In this document: positions 26,040 through 45,764 of the stretch, one piece after another
Layout of the letters: every line of letters starts with the position of its first letter
How positions within the stretch are numbered: position 1 is the stretch's first letter
Assembly: GCA_964532095.1 (NCBI GenBank)
Contig: CAZHGK010000005.1
Span: 1 to 45,764, forward strand
Length of the DNA stretch: 45,764 nucleotides
Source: an uncultured Planctomycetales bacterium
GTDB taxonomy: Bacteria > Omnitrophota > Gorgyraeia > Zapsychrales > Fredricksoniimonadaceae
Direction of reading: 5' to 3'
The notes under the pieces: model-generated
What the model was told of the DNA's origin: nothing
Seen by the model: the letters and a program-made list of their open reading frames with translations, nothing else
The model's database searches: none
Made by a program: the position numbers and the translations under genes

Positions 26040-26060
26040 TGGGCACCTTTTGGGCACCAT
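26040..26060 (+). repeat. arm-type repeat pair (TGGGCAC x2, 11-bp spacing), left arm
   Basis: TGGGCACCTTTTGGGCACCAT matches 30862-30882 at 20 of 21 positions in the same orientation. It lies 126 bp inside the left att repeat. Confidence 0.55.
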
Positions 26061-26467
26061 TAACCTTCTATCCAAACATCATGAATCCATGTTGCTAGAT
26101 CGGACCATTTCTCATTTGAAAATCCATTATGCGACCAATAAACAACTTCACCGTTCTTATTTAAACAATAATAATCACCATTGTCCTGACAAATTGGGAG
26201 TAAATCTTTAGCAATGCCTGCATCCCAACCTTCTTTTGCGACATTAATTAAATATAAACGATTATCTCTTATATCTAAATTGGCTGGTTCTAGCGTTCCA
26301 TATACCACGTCACTTGCATATAGCAGAAAATGACGATATTGATTAGGAAAAGTTATTCCTAAATCTTTCTCTGCCCTTACAACATCTTGTTCCTTTGGTA
26401 AAGTAAGTGGATTAGGAACATCTTCATTTAACTCTTTTAATTGGACTATTATTTCTTTTATATCCAT
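26060..26467 (-). CDS. SMI1/KNR4 (SUKH-1) family protein, immunity-protein-like
   Basis: 135 aa. LGITFPNQYRHFLLYAS, and the ...GDYYCLNKNGEVVYWSH pattern typical of SUKH domains. Confidence 0.7.
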   Translation of the reverse strand: MDIKEIIVQLKELNEDVPNPLTLPKEQDVVRAEKDLGITFPNQYRHFLLYASDVVYGTLEPANLDIRDNRLYLINVAKEGWDAGIAKDLLPICQDNGDYYCLNKNGEVVYWSHNGFSNEKWSDLATWIHDVWIEG

Positions 26468-26565
26468 GAAAAACCCCATGCCCGTCAATGCTACTAAGAT
26501 TTAAAAAATAAAAAATCTGCTTTGTTGTAAGTATAACACAAACAACACCGGGATAAATTCAAACC

Positions 26566-26769
26566 TCAAATATTTGCTGGCTTCATGCGCTTTCTCGCCT
26601 GTAACCATCTTTCCAAATCAGATTGCCTAAAACGGATCACTCCAGCGGAACCTCTGCTTTTATAGACCTTAAAATATGGAATATCCCCGCAATGAACCCA
26701 ATTATAAATGGTCTTAGGGCTCATTTGTAACAGTTCCCCCACTTCACGAATCTTTAAAAGTTTTTCCAT
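26566..26769 (-). CDS. excisionase / AlpA-type helix-turn-helix DNA-binding protein
   Basis: 67 aa. LKIREVGELLQMSPKTIYNWVHCGDIPYFKV...IRFRQSDLERWL. ATG at 26769 with a GGAGG SD sequence. Confidence 0.75.
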   Translation of the reverse strand: MEKLLKIREVGELLQMSPKTIYNWVHCGDIPYFKVYKSRGSAGVIRFRQSDLERWLQARKRMKPANI

Positions 26770-26931
26770 AAATCCTCCAAATCTTAGACATAACATAAAT
26801 ACAATCTATATTAAGATTCCAGAAGGATTTAATTTCTATATGTGGGGGAGAAATTAAAGGGGGATTCCTTGATACCTGCTAAATAAAATTTAGCACAAAC
26901 AAAAAATCTGTCAACAATTGCCTTGCAACCA

Positions 26932-26964
26932 ATAATTAGTGCAACGATCTGTTGCACTAATTAT
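26932..26964 (-). terminator. perfect 14-bp-stem hairpin at the end of the three-gene operon
   Basis: ATAATTAGTGCAAC-GATCT-GTTGCACTAATTAT overlaps the stop of the 150-aa ORF. A moderately T-rich tract follows on the minus strand. Confidence 0.5.
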
Positions 26965-27413
26965 CCAACAGCTTTTAAAATAACTTTTTCGTAATGTATT
27001 TTCTCAAATCTAAACGGACCAACTTGCTTAAATGAAGCCATATCAGTCATCTGAGGATCGTAGTCATTCTCATATCCAAACTCGGACCATTCAATTATTC
27101 CAGAAGACTCTGAAATTTTAATGGTAATAGCTCCACAGCCAATGTCTCCACACTCAGAGCAAACATATAACATGCATCGGCCATTTTCTAAATCTGGTGC
27201 TTGTTTTAGCTTGAAGACTTCGGCACTTTCCCGATTCAAAGCCAAGTTTTCTTCCTGTGAAAATCGTCCTACCATATCAAACTTAGAGGCTCCAAGCAAT
27301 TCATACAGTGATTGCCCATTCACAATGAAATCAATTGTATGACGTTCGTGTTTAACTGTCGAATCACCAGCACGATGAATAACACGTAAATCTAATTTAT
27401 CAGTTTTTTCCAT
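26961..27413 (-). CDS. hypothetical protein with CSECGDIGCG motif
   Basis: 150 aa with no enzymatic motif I recognise. Last gene of a tightly packed three-gene unit. Confidence 0.6.
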   Translation of the reverse strand: MEKTDKLDLRVIHRAGDSTVKHERHTIDFIVNGQSLYELLGASKFDMVGRFSQEENLALNRESAEVFKLKQAPDLENGRCMLYVCSECGDIGCGAITIKISESSGIIEWSEFGYENDYDPQMTDMASFKQVGPFRFEKIHYEKVILKAVG

Positions 27414-27445
27414 ATCCCATCCTCATTTAAACTTCTTCATAAATC

Positions 27446-27718
27446 TTAATCGTGATCATTTCTTTTAAATTTTACTTTAAGCAGGTAGCAATCTTTTAGT
27501 TTTTCCACATCCAAAACGGTGATTTTCCCACTCATATCTGGGTCTTCAACGAAACCATGTTTAGTTTGACACTCAAAATAAAAAGATGCTGATCCACTAC
27601 AAGAAGAACTGGAATGAAAATCGATGTAACCAATATCGATACTTCGAAGATTAAGAATTATATCTGAGCTCTTTCCATTTCTACCTTTCAAATATTTTGT
27701 TTCCATATTCTTCTCCAA
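27446..27718 (-). CDS. hypothetical small protein
   Basis: 90 aa. Separated by 5 nt from the upstream gene and 32 nt from the downstream gene. Confidence 0.5.
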   Translation of the reverse strand: MEKNMETKYLKGRNGKSSDIILNLRSIDIGYIDFHSSSSCSGSASFYFECQTKHGFVEDPDMSGKITVLDVEKLKDCYLLKVKFKRNDHD

Positions 27719-27723
27719 TATTC

Positions 27724-28698
27724 TTAAATCTTTAAATTTTCTTTTGTTTCTTTACTATATTTCTCTTTTACTTTCTTGAGGAAAAATATAATGTTGCCAT
27801 TTTCTTCTTTTTTCTCAAAATTTATTATTATTTGTGAACTATAAACACTTGGGTCAATTTTAGATTCCCCCTCGTATCTAGCTGTTAAAATTATTTGTAA
27901 CGCCACCGCTGCACTATTATTCTTTAACTTAGAAATATTAATTTCGGGAACAAAATTTGTTACAATGTTTCCCATTCCATCAGAGGATAATTGCCCCACT
28001 CCTTCGGGATTCTCAATCAATACTCCTGGTTGAATAGTGTCAATCCTTCCAGCCGAATCAATCCAAAAACTATCATATTTTAATTCAACGTTTTGAGCCG
28101 GTATTTTTCCCTTATTTATTAAATTAAAACTTAAATACATTTTCTCTTCATTGGAGTAAACAAAATAAAACATCCCGTTCTGTATTTTTATATTACCACC
28201 TGGTTTTAACCAAAAAACTAAATAAGGTCGGTATTCCATCTGAAGCGCTGCGATCTTATGTTCAGTGTTCTGTTTTTCGGTATTTGCTGATCTCTCTGCG
28301 CTGTTAAAGCCTAACCATGTAATAAATGCTATAAAAATAGTAGCTATAGCCATAAAAATATTGGTTAATTGTGGAATAAATCTGTCCGGATTCCATCTAA
28401 ACCAGATACTTGTAAAAAATGAAACAAAAGCAATTATCAAAAATAAATACTTAAATGAATGCTTTAAAACAATTACATTTGAGAAGCACATACAAAACAT
28501 ACAAATAAATACAAGCATACTTATAATTAAAAAAGGCTTGCTGCGGATGATTCTTTTGATTTTACTTAAATCTTGATTCATATTAAAAATATGTTTTGAA
28601 CAGAATTCATATCCATTTTTAGCATTATTCTTACAAGGATTGCCTTTTTGAGTCAAAGCTTTACATTTTGTATTATCGTTTGTAGTAGGAGTGTTCAT
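27724..28698 (-). CDS. hypothetical membrane protein with N-terminal Cys/His zinc-ribbon-like motif
   Basis: 324 aa. CKALTQKGNPCKNNAKNGYEFCSKH (C-x9-C-x11-C-x2-H), three TM helices, then a roughly 170-aa beta-rich C-terminal domain. Confidence 0.65.
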   Translation of the reverse strand: MNTPTTNDNTKCKALTQKGNPCKNNAKNGYEFCSKHIFNMNQDLSKIKRIIRSKPFLIISMLVFICMFCMCFSNVIVLKHSFKYLFLIIAFVSFFTSIWFRWNPDRFIPQLTNIFMAIATIFIAFITWLGFNSAERSANTEKQNTEHKIAALQMEYRPYLVFWLKPGGNIKIQNGMFYFVYSNEEKMYLSFNLINKGKIPAQNVELKYDSFWIDSAGRIDTIQPGVLIENPEGVGQLSSDGMGNIVTNFVPEINISKLKNNSAAVALQIILTARYEGESKIDPSVYSSQIIINFEKKEENGNIIFFLKKVKEKYSKETKENLKI

Positions 28699-28794
28699 AT
28701 TAAAAAGTTATTCAACAAACAAGGATGAGTCATATAAATTTAAAACACCTTGCCAACCTATCAGTTGGATTATATACTTTAAATAGCTTTTAAG

Positions 28795-28890
28795 GATCGG
28801 GGTGTCTCCCGGTCGAAATTTACCAAAGGTTCCGCCTCGATGACAAGGGCCCAAGGGGCCCTCTCGTAAGAGTAGTCGAGGCGGTCGCAT
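28795..28890. ncRNA. GC-rich multi-hairpin element immediately 3' of the DUF3800 CDS (candidate structured RNA)
   Basis: About 59% GC by hand count, against about 27% in the preceding 90 nt. It contains a 7-bp hairpin at 28795-28814 and a 9-bp enclosing helix (28832-28840 with 28876-28884) around GGGCCC-AAG-GGGCCC (28847-28861) and a small CTCT/AGAG hairpin. Two non-Watson-Crick positions are G-U on the plus strand but C-A on the minus strand. Confidence 0.4.
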
Positions 28891-28892
28891 TT

Positions 28893-29564
28893 TTAGTAAT
28901 ATAACGTCGTTCCTGCCCGAAATATATTAAATTCACTCTTAATAACCTTCTTTATTCCTTCGTAAGACCTTAAATCGTTAATTTCCCATTTGCGATAAAT
29001 CGCCCAATTGCAGTAATCAACAATTTGTAAATCAAAATTTGATTTTGAAGCATGATGGAATATTTCATAAACTACCCCAGGTGGAAGCATTTCGGCTAGG
29101 AATATCTTTATAGCCTTTTCTATTGCCTTCTTTTTACGCTGAACAGGAATGTTATCCGTAAAAATAATCACTTTTGCAAATTGATTTAGATCGTACCCTT
29201 TTATTACATAACTCAATAAATACTTTAACATTTCTGGGTAAAACCTTGTTTCATCTCTTAAGGCTGGTCCTGTCTTACGTTTTTCAACAATTAAGCTATC
29301 AATACGGGTCTGATCAATATATCTATGGATTATATCAAATACCCCGTTTCTTACTGCCTGGGTATCCTCTGCTGCATGAAAGGCCTCAATCTCAACGCCT
29401 AATTCAATAAGATCGTATTTTAATTCACATAAATGCTTATATGCCTCGAATGGTCGTTCTTTTGAAAGGCTCGTTAAAGTAAAATATTTAGTCCCTCCAT
29501 TCGAAAAGTCTAAATTACCGCCCTCATCTAAGAAAATATAAAGAATTTTTTTCTTCTCTAACAT
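28893..29564 (-). CDS. DUF3800 domain protein
   Basis: 223 aa. N-terminal ILYIFLDEGGN (DUF3800 hhhDESG-type motif), FHAAED, and C-terminal SKSNFDLQIVDY (LQxxD). The acidic residues are spaced compatibly with an RNase H-like fold, which is my inference. Confidence 0.75.
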   Translation of the reverse strand: MLEKKKILYIFLDEGGNLDFSNGGTKYFTLTSLSKERPFEAYKHLCELKYDLIELGVEIEAFHAAEDTQAVRNGVFDIIHRYIDQTRIDSLIVEKRKTGPALRDETRFYPEMLKYLLSYVIKGYDLNQFAKVIIFTDNIPVQRKKKAIEKAIKIFLAEMLPPGVVYEIFHHASKSNFDLQIVDYCNWAIYRKWEINDLRSYEGIKKVIKSEFNIFRAGTTLYY

Positions 29565-29633
29565 TAATATTCCCTCAAACTTAAATTTCGATAATTATAG
29601 TATATTCCTCACCGTTTAATACAACTTTTCTTC

Positions 29634-29716
29634 TGCGCGCGATCGGCCCAGACCCCTTCCGCTCCGTCAAAACCTATGGTTGAGTGGGAGGGGTCTGGGG
29701 TGATGCTTCGCGCGCA
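29634..29716. ncRNA. 83-nt GC-rich long hairpin between the integrase and DUF3800 genes (candidate structured RNA)
   Basis: About 65% GC. A 9-bp basal helix (29634-29642 with 29708-29716) and an 18-bp upper helix (29647-29664 with 29682-29699). The upper helix is continuous on the plus strand with two G-U pairs, which become A-C mismatches on the minus strand. Confidence 0.4.
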
Positions 29717-29761
29717 TTCCGTCAAATTCCTTTGTGAATCATTGACTTATGAATCAGTAAA

Positions 29762-29809
29762 TCTACATTTTTTCTACATTTTGTAGAACTTTTGTAGACT
29801 TTTTGTAGA
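29762..29809. repeat. five phased TCTACA/TGTAGA hexamers (iteron/operator-like array)
   Basis: TCTACA at 29762 and 29773; TGTAGA at 29782, 29793 and 29804. Spacing is mostly 11 bp, each hexamer has a T4-5 flank, and the central pair forms the palindrome TCTACATTTTGTAGA. Confidence 0.55.
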
Positions 29810-29810
29810 T

Positions 29811-30836
29811 TTAAAAATTTAGCTTCTCAACCGCCTTATCTACATGCTCATCAGCCAAGTGAGAATAAACCATGGTGGTTTCGATGTCTGCATGGCCTAA
29901 TAGCTTCTTGACCGTAGGCAAGTCCACTCCGCTCATAATCAAATGACTTGCAAATGTATGCCTGAGTGTATGAATCTTGGTTACATCCGAAAAACCATGT
30001 TCTGTACTTATACGCATTAATTGTTTACGCAAATAGTTAGGATCAACCTTCTCTCCCTTGCGATGAAAGACATAGGGACAAGTATCAGCTTTTTGCTTCT
30101 GATTTACCAGCACTTCCATTAAACCATTATGAATTGGAATTTCACGTTCGGACGTTTTTGGACTCCAATCATCCTTATAACGAATTTTGATTTTCTTGCG
30201 CTGAAAATCTACATCGCTCCAAGTGAGATTTTCCAATTCACTTTTGCGCATACCGGTATGAAGAAAGGTATAGAAAATTGGATAAAGCCACTCACCGCAA
30301 TTTTCTAAAAGAGCCTTGGACTCTTCTTTGCTTAAGAACCGTGGCTTTTTGTTAGCTTCTTCTTTGAGGTCTTTAATCCCTTTAACAGGATTCTCTTTAA
30401 GATAACCCCAGCGCATACCGAGATAAAACATTGCTTTTAAACAAATCAATTCAATATTGATTGTTTTGTTAGCAGCGCCTTTTTTCTTGCGATAAGCCTG
30501 ATAATCTTCAAAAAATTTGGAATTTAGTTGGGATGTCTTTTTGATGAATGGAGATTTGTTTAGGAATTCTTTGAAATTATCGAGGATGGCTGAATAACGT
30601 CTTTGTGAGGATGGTGCATGGTGGGTTTTGCTGTAGACTAGGTATTCTTCAAACAATTGGTTTAATTCAATGTCTTTTTCAACAAAACCAATTTCTTGTC
30701 GCTCTAGCTTTACTTCAATGTCCTTTAATGCTAATTCCGCTGTTTTCTTTGATTTGCCTATGGCCTTACGGACTCTTTGGCCGTTGACACGATAATCAAT
30801 AAAATACCGACCAGCTTTAAATCTGAGACTTGCCAT
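29811..30836 (-). CDS. int: tyrosine recombinase / phage-type integrase
   Basis: 341 aa. HTGMRKSEL (Arg I), HTLRHTFAS (H-x-x-R) and GHADIETTMVYSH (His/Tyr). Adjacent to the tRNA-Ser 3' end. Confidence 0.92.
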   Translation of the reverse strand: MASLRFKAGRYFIDYRVNGQRVRKAIGKSKKTAELALKDIEVKLERQEIGFVEKDIELNQLFEEYLVYSKTHHAPSSQRRYSAILDNFKEFLNKSPFIKKTSQLNSKFFEDYQAYRKKKGAANKTINIELICLKAMFYLGMRWGYLKENPVKGIKDLKEEANKKPRFLSKEESKALLENCGEWLYPIFYTFLHTGMRKSELENLTWSDVDFQRKKIKIRYKDDWSPKTSEREIPIHNGLMEVLVNQKQKADTCPYVFHRKGEKVDPNYLRKQLMRISTEHGFSDVTKIHTLRHTFASHLIMSGVDLPTVKKLLGHADIETTMVYSHLADEHVDKAVEKLNF

Positions 30837-30861: not shown

Positions 30862-30882
30862 TGGGCACTTTTTGGGCACCAT
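30862..30882 (+). repeat. arm-type repeat pair (TGGGCAC x2), right arm
   Basis: TGGGCACTTTTTGGGCACCAT lies between the int start and the att core, 73 bp inside the right repeat. Confidence 0.55.
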
Positions 30883-30951
30883 CATCTTTAAGGGGGGTCA
30901 AGATGTTTGTAACTAATAATAAAATAATCAGTTACAAAATGCAATTAAAAC

Positions 30952-31041
30952 TGGCGGAGAGGGAGAGATTCGAACTCTCGATACCCTTTCAGGTACACAC
31001 GCTCTCCAGGCGTGCGCCTTCAACCACTCGGCCACCTCTCC
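30952..31041 (-). tRNA. tRNA-Ser (anticodon GGA), CCA encoded
   Basis: Hand-folded as GGAGAGG acceptor stem, anticodon stem CACGC/GCGTG with loop CTGGAGA, a long variable arm, and T-arm GAGAG-TTCGAATC-CTCTC. 90 nt. Confidence 0.9.
30955..30973. repeat. attR-type direct repeat inside the tRNA-Ser 3' end
   Basis: Identical 19-mer to 25896-25914. Confidence 0.85.
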
Positions 31042-31159: not shown

Positions 31160-31238
31160 GATCCTGAGTCTAACTTAAGACGAAGGATCTAAATTATCAA
31201 AATCACAGATCCTGAGTCTAACTTAAGACGAAGGATCT
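31160..31238. repeat. two identical 31-bp hairpin-forming repeats (31160-31190, 31208-31238)
   Basis: GATCCTGAGTCTAACTTAAGACGAAGGATCT occurs twice with a 48-bp period. Each copy folds as GATCCT/AGGATC plus GTCT/AGAC. The pair sits just 3' of the ABC-F stop. Confidence 0.7.
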
Positions 31239-31245
31239 TAAAACC

Positions 31246-43847: not shown

Positions 43848-45632
43848 TCATTGAATACCAGCTGTCGACGGAAAACTATTATCAAATGTGCGTGAGGCCA
43901 AAAATGTAATATCATCTTTGACCGTCACATAGAGAACTTCTGAAGGAGTTGTTTGGCCCGACAAAACACATTGCCAGCCATTTTGGCGCAAGGTGGTCAT
44001 CCCCTTGGACATGGACATTTGTTTAATTGCTTCCGTACTTGGCTGCCTGGTTAAGGCATTGCGGATCGAATCTGATAATTCTAAAATTTCATAAATAGCG
44101 GTACGCCCCAAATATCCCGTCTTATTGCAGGCATCACAGCCTGCGCCCTTATAAATTTTAAAATCTTCATTCGGTAAGGACAATGATCTAACAATTTCTT
44201 CCCTTACCCCAGGAGCCACATCATGGTCCTCTGTTTTGCAATTTGGACAAATCAAACGGATCAAACGCTGGGCCACAAATGCCTGGACGCTGGAGGCAAT
44301 CAAATATGGCTCCACACCCATATCAATGAGACGATTAACACCACTGGCAGCATCATTGGTGTGCAGCGTCGATAAAACCAAATGGCCTGTCAGAGCAGTA
44401 CGCACGGCAATTTCTGCGGTATCTAAATCACGCACTTCCCCCACCATCACAATATCCGGATCATGGCGCAAGATGCTGCGCAACCCCTGGGCAAAACCAA
44501 AATTCAATTTCGGGTTCACATGAATTTGGGTTATCCCTTCCATCTCATATTCAATTGGGTCTTCAATGGTAATGATCTTGCGGTCATCCAAATTAAGTTC
44601 ATGCAAACATGCATATAAGGTCGTTGTTTTTCCACTACCCGTCGGACCAGTCACAAAAATAATCCCATGGGGCTTTTGGATCAATTCACGAAGACGCAAG
44701 GCATTGTTGGTACTCAGCCCTAAACTTTCCAGATTGGTACGCGCGGTCTTGGTAGGCAAGATACGGATCACCATACTTTCCCCTCGAGGAGTTGGTATGG
44801 TTGAAACACGCAAATCCAAATCCTGATCATTGGTGCGCACCACCGCACTGCCGTCTTGTGGCAGACGCTTTTCCGTGATCGTCAAATTTGACATAATCTT
44901 AATACGGGATAAAATCGCCGGCAAAAAGTGTTTGGCCTCTGGAGGAAGATTGGCATCCACTAAATTCCCGTCGATGCGATAACGCAAACGCACCTTTTCC
45001 CGGTAAGGCTCCAGATGGATATCGGTGGCCCGCTTTTGATAGGCTTCTAAAATAATTTCATTAACTAGCTTCGCAACAGACGGGTCCTGGCTGATTTTTT
45101 CAATATCCTCAACCCAGGAATCCCCAGCCATCTCAACCTTGGGCCGCTGTGGGTCCTTGGTTAGAATCTTATCAATCGTGTCCGACGCCAAACCATAATA
45201 TTTCTTTAATGCCTCGGTAATATCACTTTTTAAGGCCAATACTTCTTTAGGTTCAACACCCAAATGTACACGAATATCATCTTCAACCCGCACATCCAAG
45301 GGGCTGGAAATTGCAATGGTTAAAACATTTCCCTCTAGAGCAACAGGCATGAATTTATAAAAAGAAGCAAATTTCACAGGAACACGGGCAATCACCGCTT
45401 CTGGAATAGTGGTATTTCTTAAATCAATGATGGGAAGTTTAAGCTCTGAGGCTAACGCATCAACAATCTGACGGTCGGTAACAATATTGTGGCGAATCAA
45501 ATAGCTATTGAGATTTTTGTGCTCCGCTTTTGCTGCCAGAACATATTTTTCCGCAGCTTCCGTCGTGACTAAACCGGCTTTGATGAGAATATCGATGAGG
45601 ATTTTGTTGGCGACGGGTTTGTACATACACAC
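43848..45632 (-). CDS. gspE: type II secretion ATPase GspE/PilB family
   Basis: N-terminal T2SSE_N-type domain, Walker A GPTGSGKTTT, Walker B/Asp box, His box, and a tetracysteine motif (CPNC...CDAC). Confidence 0.92.
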   Translation of the reverse strand: MCMYKPVANKILIDILIKAGLVTTEAAEKYVLAAKAEHKNLNSYLIRHNIVTDRQIVDALASELKLPIIDLRNTTIPEAVIARVPVKFASFYKFMPVALEGNVLTIAISSPLDVRVEDDIRVHLGVEPKEVLALKSDITEALKKYYGLASDTIDKILTKDPQRPKVEMAGDSWVEDIEKISQDPSVAKLVNEIILEAYQKRATDIHLEPYREKVRLRYRIDGNLVDANLPPEAKHFLPAILSRIKIMSNLTITEKRLPQDGSAVVRTNDQDLDLRVSTIPTPRGESMVIRILPTKTARTNLESLGLSTNNALRLRELIQKPHGIIFVTGPTGSGKTTTLYACLHELNLDDRKIITIEDPIEYEMEGITQIHVNPKLNFGFAQGLRSILRHDPDIVMVGEVRDLDTAEIAVRTALTGHLVLSTLHTNDAASGVNRLIDMGVEPYLIASSVQAFVAQRLIRLICPNCKTEDHDVAPGVREEIVRSLSLPNEDFKIYKGAGCDACNKTGYLGRTAIYEILELSDSIRNALTRQPSTEAIKQMSMSKGMTTLRQNGWQCVLSGQTTPSEVLYVTVKDDITFLASRTFDNSFPSTAGIQ

Positions 45633-45683: not shown

Positions 45684-45764
45684 CATGTAGAAATCTTGCG
45701 CTTCCATGTCAAGGGGCTGGAAATTGCAATGGTTAAAACATTTCCCTCTAGAGCAACAGGCATG
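45684..45764 (-). CDS. 3' end of a partial ORF that duplicates an internal gspE N-domain segment
   Basis: The minus-strand reading frame gives ...MPVALEGNVLTIAISSPLTWKRKIST-stop (TGA at 45684-45686). The first 55 nt are identical to 45297-45351. Confidence 0.3.

What the first reader, a model, noticed from the sequence alone, without database searches (positions are those of the whole stretch)
28795..29716. DUF3800 gene sandwiched between two GC-rich structured elements: candidate protein-plus-RNA module on a mobile islet
Inside an islet of roughly 27-30% GC, the only two GC-rich patches (about 59% and 65% by hand count) sit immediately 3' (28795-28890) and about 70 nt 5' (29634-29716) of a DUF3800 CDS. 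Both fold into long, nearly perfect helices. DUF3800 has no assigned function. Comparative genomics has already defined a series of conserved RNA motifs named after their association with DUF3800 genes, also with unknown function. The protein's conserved acidic residues (DEGG, FHAAED, LQIVDY) would fit an RNase H-like nuclease fold, which is my inference. Other structured RNAs named after a neighbouring gene on mobile DNA later proved to be guide RNAs for that gene's nuclease, so a protein-RNA effector (defence, addiction or RNA-guided function) seems worth testing here.
Basis: partly seen in the sequence, partly recalled or inferred. Interest (0 to 1): 0.8.

Follow-up and report, generated by a model that had tools for sequence, protein, structure and literature searches.

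The report
Small RNA gene paired with DUF3800 nuclease
The GC-rich patch just after the DUF3800 gene is a conserved, branched small RNA encoded on the opposite strand that always accompanies this RNase H-like nuclease in mobile and defence DNA across many phyla and also occurs alone in phages, whereas the GC-rich hairpin in front of the gene belongs to the neighbouring integrase.

Summary
In detail: two GC-rich patches (59.4 % and 65.1 %) flank a 223-aa DUF3800 gene in a 35 %-GC tRNA-Ser islet.

The two patches are different things.
- **3' patch.** It is a small RNA gene on the + strand, convergent with DUF3800. It has a promoter-like site, a leader hairpin, an invariant AAAGGU, a three-way junction with a GNRA loop, and a U-run that overlaps the stop codon.
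- **Conservation.** The junction follows the stop codon in 80/80 genome homologues and 6/6 viral ones. 99 % of cells are paired, and 15 of 19 pairs show compensatory change.
- **Known families.** No Rfam 15 family matches it. In other loci Rfam DUF3800-VII, -VIII and -IX lie 5–16 nt upstream on the same strand, so it is an unmodelled shared 3' domain of DUF3800 RNAs.
- **Orphans.** About a third of RNA-anchored hits lack DUF3800. These are enriched in viral contigs, and some sit directly after phage tRNAs.
- **Protein.** It models as RNase H2-like.
- **5' hairpin.** It is absent from all DUF3800 loci but recurs after a homologous integrase.

My best guess, which is inferred, is an RNA-controlled (antitoxin-like) nuclease module, with phage copies acting as decoys. 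An RNA-guide function is not supported.

The parts
28750..28778 (+). Sigma-70-like promoter of the small RNA (TTGCCA, 17 nt, TATACT). The predicted transcription start is near 28785.
   Evidence: This is the best promoter-like match in 28600-29850, with 10 of 12 positions. The same TTGnCA-17-TATAnT arrangement aligns in L208 and L001. Across 214 loci, promoter-like sites are enriched on this strand just upstream of the motif: 35 % versus 4.7 % on the opposite strand and 8.6 % in shuffles. This is a consensus match only; no transcript data exist.
28795..28814 (+). Leader hairpin of the RNA (8 pairs, UGUC loop). It is a variable 5' part and does not belong to the conserved core.
   Evidence: It is predicted in the fold of 28785-28896. 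It is conserved in L208 and absent from L001, L002 and L005.
28825..28831 (+). Near-invariant single-stranded AAAGGUY that precedes helix P1.
   Evidence: In the protein-anchored alignment A2 (81 sequences), A15-A17 and T20 are invariant and G18 and G19 are at least 90 % conserved.
28832..28884 (+). Three-way junction. P1 is 28832-28840 paired with 28876-28884. The 5' junction segment is UGACA (28841-28845). P2 is 28846-28852 paired with 28856-28862, with a 3-nt loop. P3 is 28863-28865 paired with 28870-28872, with a GUAA (GNRA) loop at 28866-28869. The 3' junction segment is UAG (28873-28875).
   Evidence: 99.2 % of cells are paired, 15 of 19 pairs change on both sides, and 0 of 500 shuffles reach the observed values. 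RNAalifold predicts the same structure on its own. The covariance model scores 94 bits on the + strand and 13 bits on the - strand. G-U pairs number 19 on this strand versus 3 on the other, and the P3 loop is GNRA in 72 of 81 sequences on this strand only.
28885..28895 (+). 3' tail UCGCA followed by UUUUU. This terminator-like U-run overlaps the DUF3800 stop codon (28893-28895).
   Evidence: A U-run of at least 4 lies within 12 nt of P1 in 84 % of the 80 genome loci. The U-run is kept even where it must be encoded by extra C-terminal Lys codons (YYKK*) in L030, L059 and L060. The simple terminator scan does not report it, because the stem is branched.
28893..29564 (-). DUF3800 gene: 223 aa, a predicted RNase H2-like nuclease with the conserved residues intact (D13, E14, D89, E94, D137, Q180, D183).
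   Evidence: Pfam PF12686 matches at E 2e-10. PADLOC DUF3800_VII, the retron type VII effector, matches at E 7e-9. The invariant columns come from alignment A1. The AlphaFold2 model has pLDDT 91.3. Foldseek's best PDB hits are 3puf_M and 1eke, RNase H2/HII, at E 4e-5 and TM about 0.5.
29634..29716 (.). Long GC-rich hairpin. It is NOT part of the DUF3800 module; it travels with the integrase.
   Evidence: It has no match in 80 DUF3800 loci. The half of the hairpin nearest the integrase, together with the adjacent repeats, is conserved downstream of a homologous integrase in L222. It is not followed by a U-run on either strand.
29762..29809 (.). 11-nt TCTACA / TGTAGA repeats between the integrase stop codon and the hairpin. 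They are candidate recombinase-binding sites and belong to the islet backbone.
   Evidence: Tandem Repeats Finder reports them. They are conserved in L222.
29811..30836 (-). Tyrosine integrase of the islet that carries the module.
   Evidence: Pfam Phage_integrase matches at E 1.7e-33.

Best explanation
**What is shown.** The 3' GC-rich patch is a gene for a small RNA of about 110 nt, transcribed from the + strand and convergent with DUF3800. Its parts, in order, are:
- a sigma-70-like promoter (28750-28778);
- a variable leader, here a small hairpin;
- an invariant AAAGGU;
- a 53-nt three-way junction with a GNRA-capped arm;
- a U-run that ends the RNA on top of the DUF3800 stop codon.

The RNA and the RNase H2-like DUF3800 protein form a compact two-gene module of about 0.9 kb. 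The module moves between phyla and usually sits inside restriction-modification operons or, as here, on an integrase islet. The junction is a shared 3' domain of DUF3800-associated RNAs. Rfam's DUF3800-VII, -VIII and -IX motifs are optional 5' domains placed in front of it.

**What is inferred.** The RNA acts in trans on the protein. It binds the nuclease and keeps it inactive or otherwise gates it, as an RNA antitoxin does, or as msDNA does in retrons. Loss or titration of the RNA during infection would release the nuclease. Stand-alone copies carried by phages, some co-transcribed with phage tRNAs, would act as decoys that keep the nuclease silenced.

The 5' hairpin is unrelated to the module. 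It belongs to the integrase end of the islet.
For: **RNA and its structure**
- The motif lies directly after the stop codon in 80/80 genome loci from more than 10 phyla. It is 76-97 % identical at the nucleotide level where the proteins are only 49-81 % identical.
- 99.2 % of cells are paired, 15 of 19 pairs change on both sides, there are 166 compensatory cells, and 0 of 500 shuffles reach these values. RNAalifold gives the same fold.

**Strand, from five independent lines**
- G-U pairs number 19 versus 3, and GNRA loops occur in 72 of 81 sequences, including variants with longer stems.
- A U-run follows P1 in 84 % of loci.
- Promoter-like sites are enriched on this strand: 35 % versus 4.7 %, and TTGAC occurs 86 times versus 9.
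- Rfam DUF3800-VII, -VIII and -IX hits lie on the same strand, 5-16 nt upstream.
- tRNA genes lie on the same strand 5-21 nt upstream in 6 loci.

**One-way dependence**
- Every protein homologue tested has the RNA: 80/80 in genomes, and 6/6 in viral contigs down to 32 % identity, though the two most distant viral matches are weak (21.6 and 16.6 bits).
- By contrast, 44 of 113 RNA-anchored copies with enough flanking DNA lack DUF3800.
- The orphans still keep the fold, with 97.7 % of cells paired and 165 compensatory cells.
- Orphans are enriched in viral contigs: 11/15 versus 33/98, Fisher p = 0.005.

**Protein**
- The fold is RNase H2/HII-like, with PIWI and NurA domains next in the ranking.
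- It is related to the retron type VII effector (PMC7736814).

**Context**
- The module sits in type I, IIG and III restriction-modification operons, beside KAP NTPase, Schlafen-AlbA2 and RhuM genes.
Against: - There are no expression, binding or toxicity data. The trans-acting, inhibitory role is pure inference.
- The fixed convergent, abutting geometry fits a cis-antisense or shared-terminator role equally well.
- The RNA is single-copy and convergent. This differs from type III antitoxins, which are tandem repeats upstream of the toxin.
- Orphan copies lie next to many unrelated genes: DUF5131, YhcG, Abi_2 and DAP epimerase. This could mean the RNA has a function of its own that has nothing to do with DUF3800.
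- IMG/VR 'viral' contigs may include host DNA.
- The RNA-anchored sample was retrieved with a pattern that fixes AAAGGT and other bases, so it is biased towards canonical copies.
- The promoter is only a consensus match.
Confidence: 0.4

Rival explanations
1. Cis-antisense control, similar to a type I toxin-antitoxin pair with 3' overlap. The RNA works by base-pairing with the 3' end of the DUF3800 mRNA, which reads through the same sequence. The duplex would trigger cleavage or alter mRNA stability, or transcription of the RNA would interfere with convergent transcription of the gene.
For: - The geometry is strictly convergent. The RNA's end lies on or within about 30 nt of the stop codon in 79/80 genome loci and 78 metagenome loci.
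- On the gene strand the helix is followed only by ACCUUU, a weak terminator, so read-through is plausible.
- Distant DUF3800 subfamilies keep the convergent order, with a gap of 107-131 nt.
Against: - Antisense pairing needs no conserved shape. Here the junction bases, the GNRA loop and the helices are kept by compensatory change across phyla.
- About a third of copies have no DUF3800 to pair with and still keep the fold.
- Some copies are co-oriented with phage tRNAs.
Confidence: 0.2
2. A portable, unusually elaborate bidirectional terminator or insulator. It travels with the gene and shields neighbouring operons, with no RNA product that has a function.
For: - A GC-rich P1 stem is flanked by an A-run on the 5' side and a U-run on the 3' side.
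- It sits between genes inside restriction-modification operons.
- Weinberg et al. 2017 described several DUF3800 motifs as 'followed by Rho-independent terminators'.
Against: - Terminators do not keep invariant junction nucleotides, a GNRA loop and a three-way branch across more than 10 phyla.
- Viral orphan copies mostly lack the U-run; only 21 % have one.
- A dedicated promoter lies directly upstream in many loci.
- The nucleotide identity of the motif exceeds that of the adjacent coding sequence.
Confidence: 0.1
3. An RNA-guided nuclease. The conserved junction would be a scaffold held by the RNase H/PIWI-like protein, and the variable 5' leader would be a guide that selects nucleic-acid targets.
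For: - The layout of a variable 5' segment, a conserved 3' scaffold and a terminator resembles that of guide RNAs.
- Argonaute PIWI domains are among the fold matches.
- DUF3800 domains accompany some Cas12a2/a3 and type VI-F loci.
Against: - In many loci the predicted leader is only 0-20 nt long.
- Where the leader is long, it is itself a conserved structured domain (DUF3800-VII, -VIII or -IX) and not a free guide.
- There is no array, no transposon end and no target-like repeat.
- The RNA is antisense to the gene, unlike omega RNAs.
- The best fold match is RNase H2, not PIWI.
Confidence: 0.07
4. The RNA is an autonomous small RNA of mobile elements and phages with its own function, for example a tRNA-linked stable RNA. 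DUF3800 would be a nuclease that senses, processes or exploits it, rather than being controlled by it.
For: - Orphan copies are common and under selection.
- Copies lie 5-21 nt after tRNA-Met or tRNA-Thr, and at the end of a 9-tRNA array.
- One contig, L125, has tandem copies.
Against: - Every DUF3800 gene of this subfamily carries its own copy at a fixed position. This fits a dedicated partner better than a foreign signal.
- No second conserved partner gene is found among the orphans.
Confidence: 0.13
5. One reading: both GC-rich elements are RNA partners of DUF3800.
For: Both elements are GC-rich, fold stably and flank the gene.
Against: - The 5' hairpin has no sequence match in any of 80 homologous loci.
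- Part of it is conserved, together with the adjacent 11-nt repeats, downstream of a homologous integrase in a contig with a different left flank.
- In operon-embedded homologues the gene starts only 18 nt after hsdM, which leaves no room for such an element.
Confidence: 0.03

Closest known systems
Rfam DUF3800-VII (RF02967), DUF3800-VIII (RF03075) and DUF3800-IX (RF02968) RNA motifs (Weinberg et al. 2017, PMC5737381)
   Same: - They are structured small RNAs found next to DUF3800 genes, and their function is unknown.
- In L103, L105, L200, L063, L067 and L068 they lie on the same strand as the junction described here, 5-16 nt upstream. They are therefore parts of the same transcripts.
   Different: - None of these models, nor any other Rfam 15 family, matches the window or the junction itself.
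- The junction is the part shared between them and is not modelled in Rfam.
- 85 of 91 loci scanned, including all close relatives of the window, have the junction without any Rfam 5' domain.
Retron type VII (reverse transcriptase + msr/msd RNA + DUF3800 effector; Mestre et al. 2020, PMC7736814)
   Same: The effector is a homologous DUF3800, RNase H2-like protein (PADLOC DUF3800_VII, E 7e-9). In both cases a nuclease-like effector is paired with a dedicated structured non-coding RNA in defence contexts.
   Different: No reverse transcriptase gene lies in the islet or in the neighbourhoods examined. The RNA does not match any retron msr/msd model and is convergent with the effector gene.
Type III toxin-antitoxin systems (ToxIN, CptIN, TenpIN)
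   Same: The proposed logic is the same: a protein nuclease is neutralised by its own structured RNA, the system acts as an abortive-infection defence, and phages escape by carrying antitoxin-like RNA. This comparison rests on my own knowledge of ToxIN and pseudo-ToxI.
   Different: The antitoxin there is a tandem array of short repeats upstream of the toxin on the same strand, and the toxin processes it. Here the RNA is a single copy, branched and convergent, and the nuclease fold is RNase H-like.
Type I toxin-antitoxin pairs with 3'-overlapping antisense RNA (for example txpA/RatA, bsrG/SR4)
   Same: A convergent small RNA has its 3' end overlapping the 3' end of the partner gene.
   Different: The partner here is a 223-aa soluble nuclease, not a small membrane peptide. 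The RNA's shape and junction sequence are conserved across phyla, and it also occurs without the gene.
Omega RNAs of IscB and TnpB (formerly the HEARO and IS605-orfB motifs)
   Same: These are precedents for a gene-associated Weinberg motif later shown to be the nuclease's RNA partner. They also have a scaffold with a variable end.
   Different: Those RNAs are on the gene's strand, overlap the transposon end and carry a true guide. None of these features is seen here.

Membership tests
Rfam DUF3800-I to -XI RNA motifs | A covariance-model match at or above the family's gathering score. | tested here: not met
   No DUF3800 family hit appears in the whole window at the gathering threshold, nor in 28600-29900 at E <= 10. 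The library does contain these models: VII, VIII and IX score above gathering in other loci.
Rfam DUF3800-I to -XI RNA motifs | Genomic association with a DUF3800 gene. | tested here: met
   The motif abuts the DUF3800 stop codon in the window and in 80/80 genome and 6/6 viral homologues.
Rfam DUF3800-I to -XI RNA motifs | A conserved secondary structure supported by covariation. | tested here: met
   15 of 19 pairs show compensatory changes, 99.2 % of cells are paired, and 0 of 500 shuffles reach these values. RNAalifold agrees.
Type III toxin-antitoxin | The RNA antitoxin is encoded as tandem direct repeats upstream of the toxin on the same strand. | tested here: not met
   There is a single copy, on the opposite strand and downstream of the gene. 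No tandem repeats lie in 28600-29600.
Type III toxin-antitoxin | The protein is a toxic endoribonuclease that binds and processes its RNA. | not testable with these tools
   Only the fold can be assessed, and it is RNase H2-like. Toxicity, binding and processing need experiments.
Type I toxin-antitoxin (3'-overlap class) | A convergent antisense RNA overlaps the 3' end of the toxin gene. | tested here: met
   The RNA's 3' U-run (28890-28894) overlaps the stop codon (28893-28895).
Type I toxin-antitoxin (3'-overlap class) | The toxin is a small hydrophobic peptide. | tested here: not met
   The partner is a 223-aa globular alpha/beta protein with a nuclease fold.
Retron type VII | A retron reverse transcriptase gene lies adjacent to the DUF3800 effector. 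| tested here: not met
   No reverse transcriptase domain is found in the islet ORFs or among the recurrent neighbours in 80 loci.
Retron type VII | The effector is a DUF3800 protein. | tested here: met
   PADLOC DUF3800_VII matches at E 7e-9 over residues 5-215.
Guide-RNA nucleases (IscB/TnpB omega RNA, Cas) | The RNA is on the gene's strand or in an array, with a variable guide segment next to a repeat or transposon end. | tested here: not met
   The RNA is antisense to the gene. There is no array and no inverted terminal repeat. The 5' segments are short or are conserved structured domains.
Intrinsic (Rho-independent) terminator | A GC-rich stem is followed directly by a U-run. | tested here: inconclusive
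   A U-run of at least 4 lies within 12 nt of P1 in 84 % of genome loci, but in only 21 % of viral orphans. The stem is branched and is missed by the simple scan. Termination itself was not measured.
RNase H-like superfamily (protein) | An RNase H fold with clustered conserved acidic residues. | tested here: met
   Foldseek's top hits are RNase H2 (3puf_M) and RNase HII (1eke) at E 4e-5 and TM about 0.5. D13, E14, D89, E94, D137 and D183 are invariant. No solved DUF3800 structure is found by sequence. Spatial clustering of the acidic residues in the model was not inspected.

The most novel reading that the evidence does not exclude
The DUF3800 protein and the three-way-junction RNA form a new class of RNA-gated immune nuclease. 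A single branched small RNA, not a repeat array, holds an RNase H-like effector in check. The diverse DUF3800-I to -XI motifs would be interchangeable 5' sensor domains grafted onto this common 3' core. Phages would carry bare copies of the core, some inside their tRNA arrays, as anti-defence decoys.
Probability: 0.25. Interest if true: 0.85.

Novelty: new member of a known kind. Interest (0 to 1): 0.6.

Why it matters
DUF3800 genes have been known since 2017 to sit next to eleven dissimilar structured RNAs, and nobody has had a hypothesis for what those RNAs do.

This locus and its relatives add three things:
- A short branched 3' domain is common to at least three of those RNAs and to many RNAs that have no other domain.
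- The protein never occurs without the RNA, while the RNA often occurs without the protein.
- The orphan copies concentrate in phage-like DNA.

Together these points reduce the problem to a 0.9-kb two-gene unit that can be cloned and tested directly for toxicity, RNA binding and phage defence. The work also yields a covariance model that could be added to RNA family databases, and it would improve annotation of a gap that recurs in restriction-modification operons.

Tried and rejected
- **Rfam.** No family matches the motif, either at gathering thresholds over the whole window or at E <= 10 over 28600-29900. The weak miRNA, snoRNA and tracrRNA rows are chance hairpin matches.
- **Conservation of the 5' hairpin.** BLASTN against 80 loci found nothing. 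An exact 20-mer scan of viral contigs found nothing. blastn against plasmids found nothing.
- **Cultured phages.** Neither the window RNA nor a phage-type copy has a blastn match in GenBank phages.
- **Micro-ORF reading.** An (A/G)UG-to-stop frame runs through P2 and P3, but it was rejected. Its length changes with the loop sequence, the P3 insertions are not multiples of 3, and the substitutions are compensatory.
- **Hammerhead or other self-cleaving ribozyme.** The junction strands (UGAYA, 0 nt, UAG) do not fit the hammerhead core, and no ribozyme family hits.
- **Integron attC-like DNA site.** Rejected because of the strand-asymmetric G-U pairs, the GNRA loops and the high sequence conservation.
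- **A spurious 143-aa ORF family** overlapping the motif is an artefact of translating the conserved RNA.
- **Source organism.** A look-up of the window's own protein gave no record name, so the organism remains unknown.
- **Conserved partner gene among orphan copies.** None was found by BLAST clustering or by Pfam scans of 166 neighbouring ORFs.
- **The 324-aa neighbour** is not homologous to the neighbour in L208.
- **Literature.** A search found no functional study of DUF3800 RNAs.
Full report
**1. The observation**

The window carries a 223-aa ORF on the minus strand at 28893-29564. It matches Pfam DUF3800 over its full length (E 2e-10). It lies next to a tyrosine integrase (29811-30836, -) and a tRNA-Ser(GGA) gene (30952-31041, -). 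A near-perfect 22-nt direct repeat (26040-26061 and 30862-30883) brackets a 4.8-kb stretch of 34.9 % GC, in a window that averages 42 %. This fits an integrated islet.

They are the only such patches in the islet. Both fold far better than shuffled sequence. The description is therefore correct, with two exceptions:
- The islet is not as AT-rich as stated.
- The 3' patch is not one long helix.

**2. The 3' patch is a conserved RNA**

The protein has 879 detectable relatives. The top 120 are 60-86 % identical and come from Omnitrophota, Chlamydiae, Verrucomicrobia, Planctomycetes, Elusimicrobia, Deltaproteobacteria and others. I fetched 80 homologous genome loci.

BLASTN with the two flanks gave a clear split:
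- The 5' hairpin matched nothing.
- The first 71 nt or so after the stop codon matched at 75-97 % identity in nearly every locus.

On inspection, all 80 loci have the element right after the stop codon. The alignment (A2) shows a three-way junction with these parts:
- P1, 9 bp;
- P2, 7 bp with a 3-nt loop;
- P3, 3-6 bp with a tetraloop;
- near-invariant single-stranded segments: AAAGGUY before P1, UGAYA between P1 and P2, UAG before the return strand of P1, and then GGUC.

Pair counting gives 99.2 % standard pairs. 15 of 19 pairs change on both sides, and there are 166 compensatory cells. None of 500 column shuffles reaches the observed values, and the signal collapses when the 3' partners are slid by one to three columns. 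RNAalifold finds the same structure independently.

**3. Which strand**

Five independent observations say the RNA is read from the window's + strand, antisense to DUF3800.
- **Wobble pairs.** Non-Watson-Crick cells are G-U on that strand in 19 cases and on the gene strand in 3.
- **Tetraloop.** The P3 loop reads GAAA, GCAA, GUAA, GAGA or GCGA (GNRA) in 72 of 81 sequences, on that strand only. This includes variants whose stem is 4-6 bp long.
- **U-run.** P1 is followed by UC(R)N and a run of U's in 84 % of loci. In L030, L059 and L060 the run is supplied by two extra Lys codons at the end of the protein.
- **Promoters.** Sigma-70-like promoters are enriched on that strand just upstream. 35 % of 214 loci reach 9 of 12 matches, against 4.7 % on the other strand and 8.6 % in shuffles. 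TTGAC occurs 86 times versus 9, peaking 35-50 nt before AAAGG.
- **Annotated RNAs.** Curated RNA models fall on the same strand directly upstream (sections 4 and 5).

A covariance model built from A2 scores the window at 94 bits on + and 13 bits on -, and finds a single copy.

In the window the best promoter-like site is TTGCCA-17-TATACT at 28750-28778. It aligns with equivalent sites in L208 and L001. This predicts an RNA from about 28785 to about 28895. The small hairpin at 28795-28814 lies in the leader. It is shared with L208 and is absent from L001, L002 and L005.

**4. Relation to the known DUF3800 RNA motifs**

No Rfam 15 family matches the window at either threshold. When I scanned 91 motif-bearing loci, six carried a curated DUF3800 motif. 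Each lay 5-16 nt upstream of the junction, on the same strand:
- DUF3800-VII in L103;
- DUF3800-IX in L105;
- DUF3800-VIII in L200, L063, L067 and L068.

The other 85 loci, including all close relatives of the window, have no Rfam domain.

[quoted passage not shown] The junction described here appears to be that 'terminator'. It is in fact a conserved, branched 3' domain shared by at least three of the motifs, and in many loci it is the only structured part. I could not test motifs I-VI, X and XI.

**5. Searching from the RNA side**

A degenerate pattern for the junction matched once in the window, in 18 viral contigs and in at least 120 metagenome contigs. The pattern leaves the P1 sequence free.

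I then considered only copies with at least 750 nt available on the gene side:
- 69 have the convergent DUF3800.
- 44 do not.

Pfam scans of 166 ORFs around the orphans found only two distant DUF3800 genes by Pfam; two further loci cluster with one of them. Otherwise the neighbours form a heterogeneous set:
- phage genes: portal, prohead protease, lysozyme, HNH, Mom, Mu F, endonuclease VII, SSB;
- restriction-modification genes;
- YhcG nuclease, Abi_2 and DUF5131.

The orphans are not decaying relics. 97.7 % of cells are paired, with 165 compensatory cells. They are enriched in viral contigs, 11/15 versus 33/98 (p = 0.005).

In six loci the RNA starts 5-21 nt after a tRNA gene on the same strand. 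Four viral contigs and one metagenome contig have it after tRNA-Met, in the metagenome contig at the end of a nine-tRNA array. One further metagenome contig has it after tRNA-Thr.

The converse search, anchored on the protein in viral contigs, found six DUF3800 relatives at 32-61 % identity. All six have a model hit on the opposite strand right after the stop codon, at 81, 79, 74, 39, 22 and 17 bits. The last two are weak (E 0.0016 and 0.05).

The dependence is therefore one-way. The protein always has the RNA, but the RNA often lacks the protein.

**6. The protein and its setting**

An AlphaFold2 model from a 30-sequence alignment is confident (pLDDT 91.3). Its best PDB matches are human RNase H2 and archaeal RNase HII (E 4e-5, TM about 0.5). 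Argonaute PIWI domains, NurA and terminase nucleases follow. No DUF3800 structure has been solved. The conserved DE (D13, E14), D89/E94, D137 and QxxD (Q180, D183) are intact.

This agrees with earlier proposals for the retron type VII effector and the Cas12a2-linked TPR-DUF3800. PADLOC's retron-VII DUF3800 model also hits the protein (E 7e-9).

In other genomes the gene-RNA pair usually sits inside restriction-modification operons, co-oriented with the neighbouring genes:
- type I hsdM/S/R;
- Eco57I/MmeI-like type IIG;
- type III.

In the closest long contigs it lies between hsdM and hsdS, beside KAP NTPase and Schlafen-AlbA2 genes. This is defence-island context. In the window it rides on an integrase islet together with a SUKH_5 immunity-type gene.

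**7. The 5' hairpin**

The 83-nt hairpin at 29634-29716 has no counterpart upstream of any homologue. In operon-embedded copies the gene starts 18 nt after hsdM, which leaves no room for such an element.

A contig with an integrase from the same 90 %-identity cluster (L222) carries three matching features downstream of that integrase: the same 11-nt TCTACA/TGTAGA repeats, the same spacer and the first half of the same hairpin. The contig ends inside the hairpin, and its other flank is an IS240-type transposase rather than a tRNA.

The hairpin therefore travels with the integrase. Its role is open; it could be a recombinase site, a terminator or a repeat. This conclusion rests on a single relative.

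**8. How the module probably works**

Shown:
- a dedicated, structured, independently promoted small RNA convergent with an RNase H-like gene;
- obligate presence of the RNA beside the gene;
- a mobile and defence context;
- orphan RNAs in phage-like DNA.

Inferred:
- The RNA acts on the protein, most simply by binding it and holding it inactive. This would resemble RNA antitoxins, or msDNA with retron effectors.
- The phage copies would then be decoys.

The one-way dependence is the pattern expected of a toxin and its antidote. I put this reading at about 0.4.

The main rival is cis-antisense control through the overlapping 3' ends (0.2). It explains the geometry, but not the conserved shape or the orphans. 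The remaining readings and my estimates are:
- an elaborate portable terminator, 0.1;
- an autonomous RNA that DUF3800 senses or processes, 0.13;
- a guide RNA, 0.07.

None of these is excluded. The guide idea is the weakest, because predicted leaders are short or are themselves conserved structured domains.

**9. Novelty and limits**

The association between DUF3800 genes and structured RNAs is already known. This particular motif is not in Rfam 15, and I found no paper that describes it or any function for DUF3800 RNAs. I therefore file it as a new member of a known kind, with the added point that it is a shared core domain.

Limits:
- There are no transcript data.
- 'Viral' contigs may contain host DNA.
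- E-values from the model are rough.
- The source organism is unknown.

Noticed in passing
window 26040-26061 and 30862-30883: A near-perfect 22-nt direct repeat (TGGGCACyTTTTGGGCACCAT) brackets a 4.8-kb, 35 %-GC islet about 70 nt from the 3' end of tRNA-Ser(GGA). These are probably the attachment-site repeats of the integrase element.
   Followed up: partly
window 29762-29809: 11-nt TCTACAnnnnn / TTTTGTAGAnn repeats, in both orientations, lie between the integrase stop codon and the GC-rich hairpin. They are conserved after the homologous integrase in L222 and are candidate recombinase or excisionase binding sites.
   Followed up: partly
window 26060-28698 (-): The islet also carries a SUKH_5 (SMI1/KNR4) immunity-type gene (26060-26488), an HTH_17 AlpA-like regulator (26566-26796), and three ORFs of 150, 90 and 324 aa with no family match. 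The 324-aa ORF has a Cys-rich N-terminus and apparently hydrophobic stretches.
   Followed up: partly
window 31160-31193 and 31208-31241: Two copies of a 34-nt sequence, 97 % identical and 48 nt apart, lie between the ABC-F ATPase gene and tRNA-Ser.
   Followed up: no
window 45297-45351 and 45710-45764: A perfect 55-nt direct repeat with 413-nt spacing runs to the very end of the window. It could be a repeat inside a gene or an assembly feature.
   Followed up: no
L125 462-550 (-) and 717-806 (-): One metagenome contig has two copies of the junction RNA in tandem on the same strand, about 255 nt apart and without DUF3800.
   Followed up: no
L064 3815-3851 (+); L054 6170-6215 (-); L046 385-429 (+); L119 1229-1298 (-): Other curated RNA motifs lie close to DUF3800 modules: an abiF RNA about 330 nt from the junction in L064, Acido-Lenti-1 RNAs in L054 and L046, and a group II intron domain in L119.
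   Followed up: no
L030, L059, L060 (end of the DUF3800 ORF): Where the stop codon TGA overlaps the GGUCA at the 3' end of the RNA, the protein ends in YYKK*. The two Lys codons (AAAAAA) encode the RNA's U-run on the other strand, so one stretch of DNA appears to meet both constraints.
   Followed up: partly
L084, L085, L088, L098, L099 (3' of the motif): In a group of viral contigs the orphan RNA is followed not by a U-run but by a conserved GAAGTTTGGCGCGG... segment. In four of these contigs it follows tRNA-Met. A related ORF of about 100 aa (179 aa in L098) runs on the opposite strand and overlaps the RNA end by 21 nt in four of the contigs. It has no Pfam match.
   Followed up: partly
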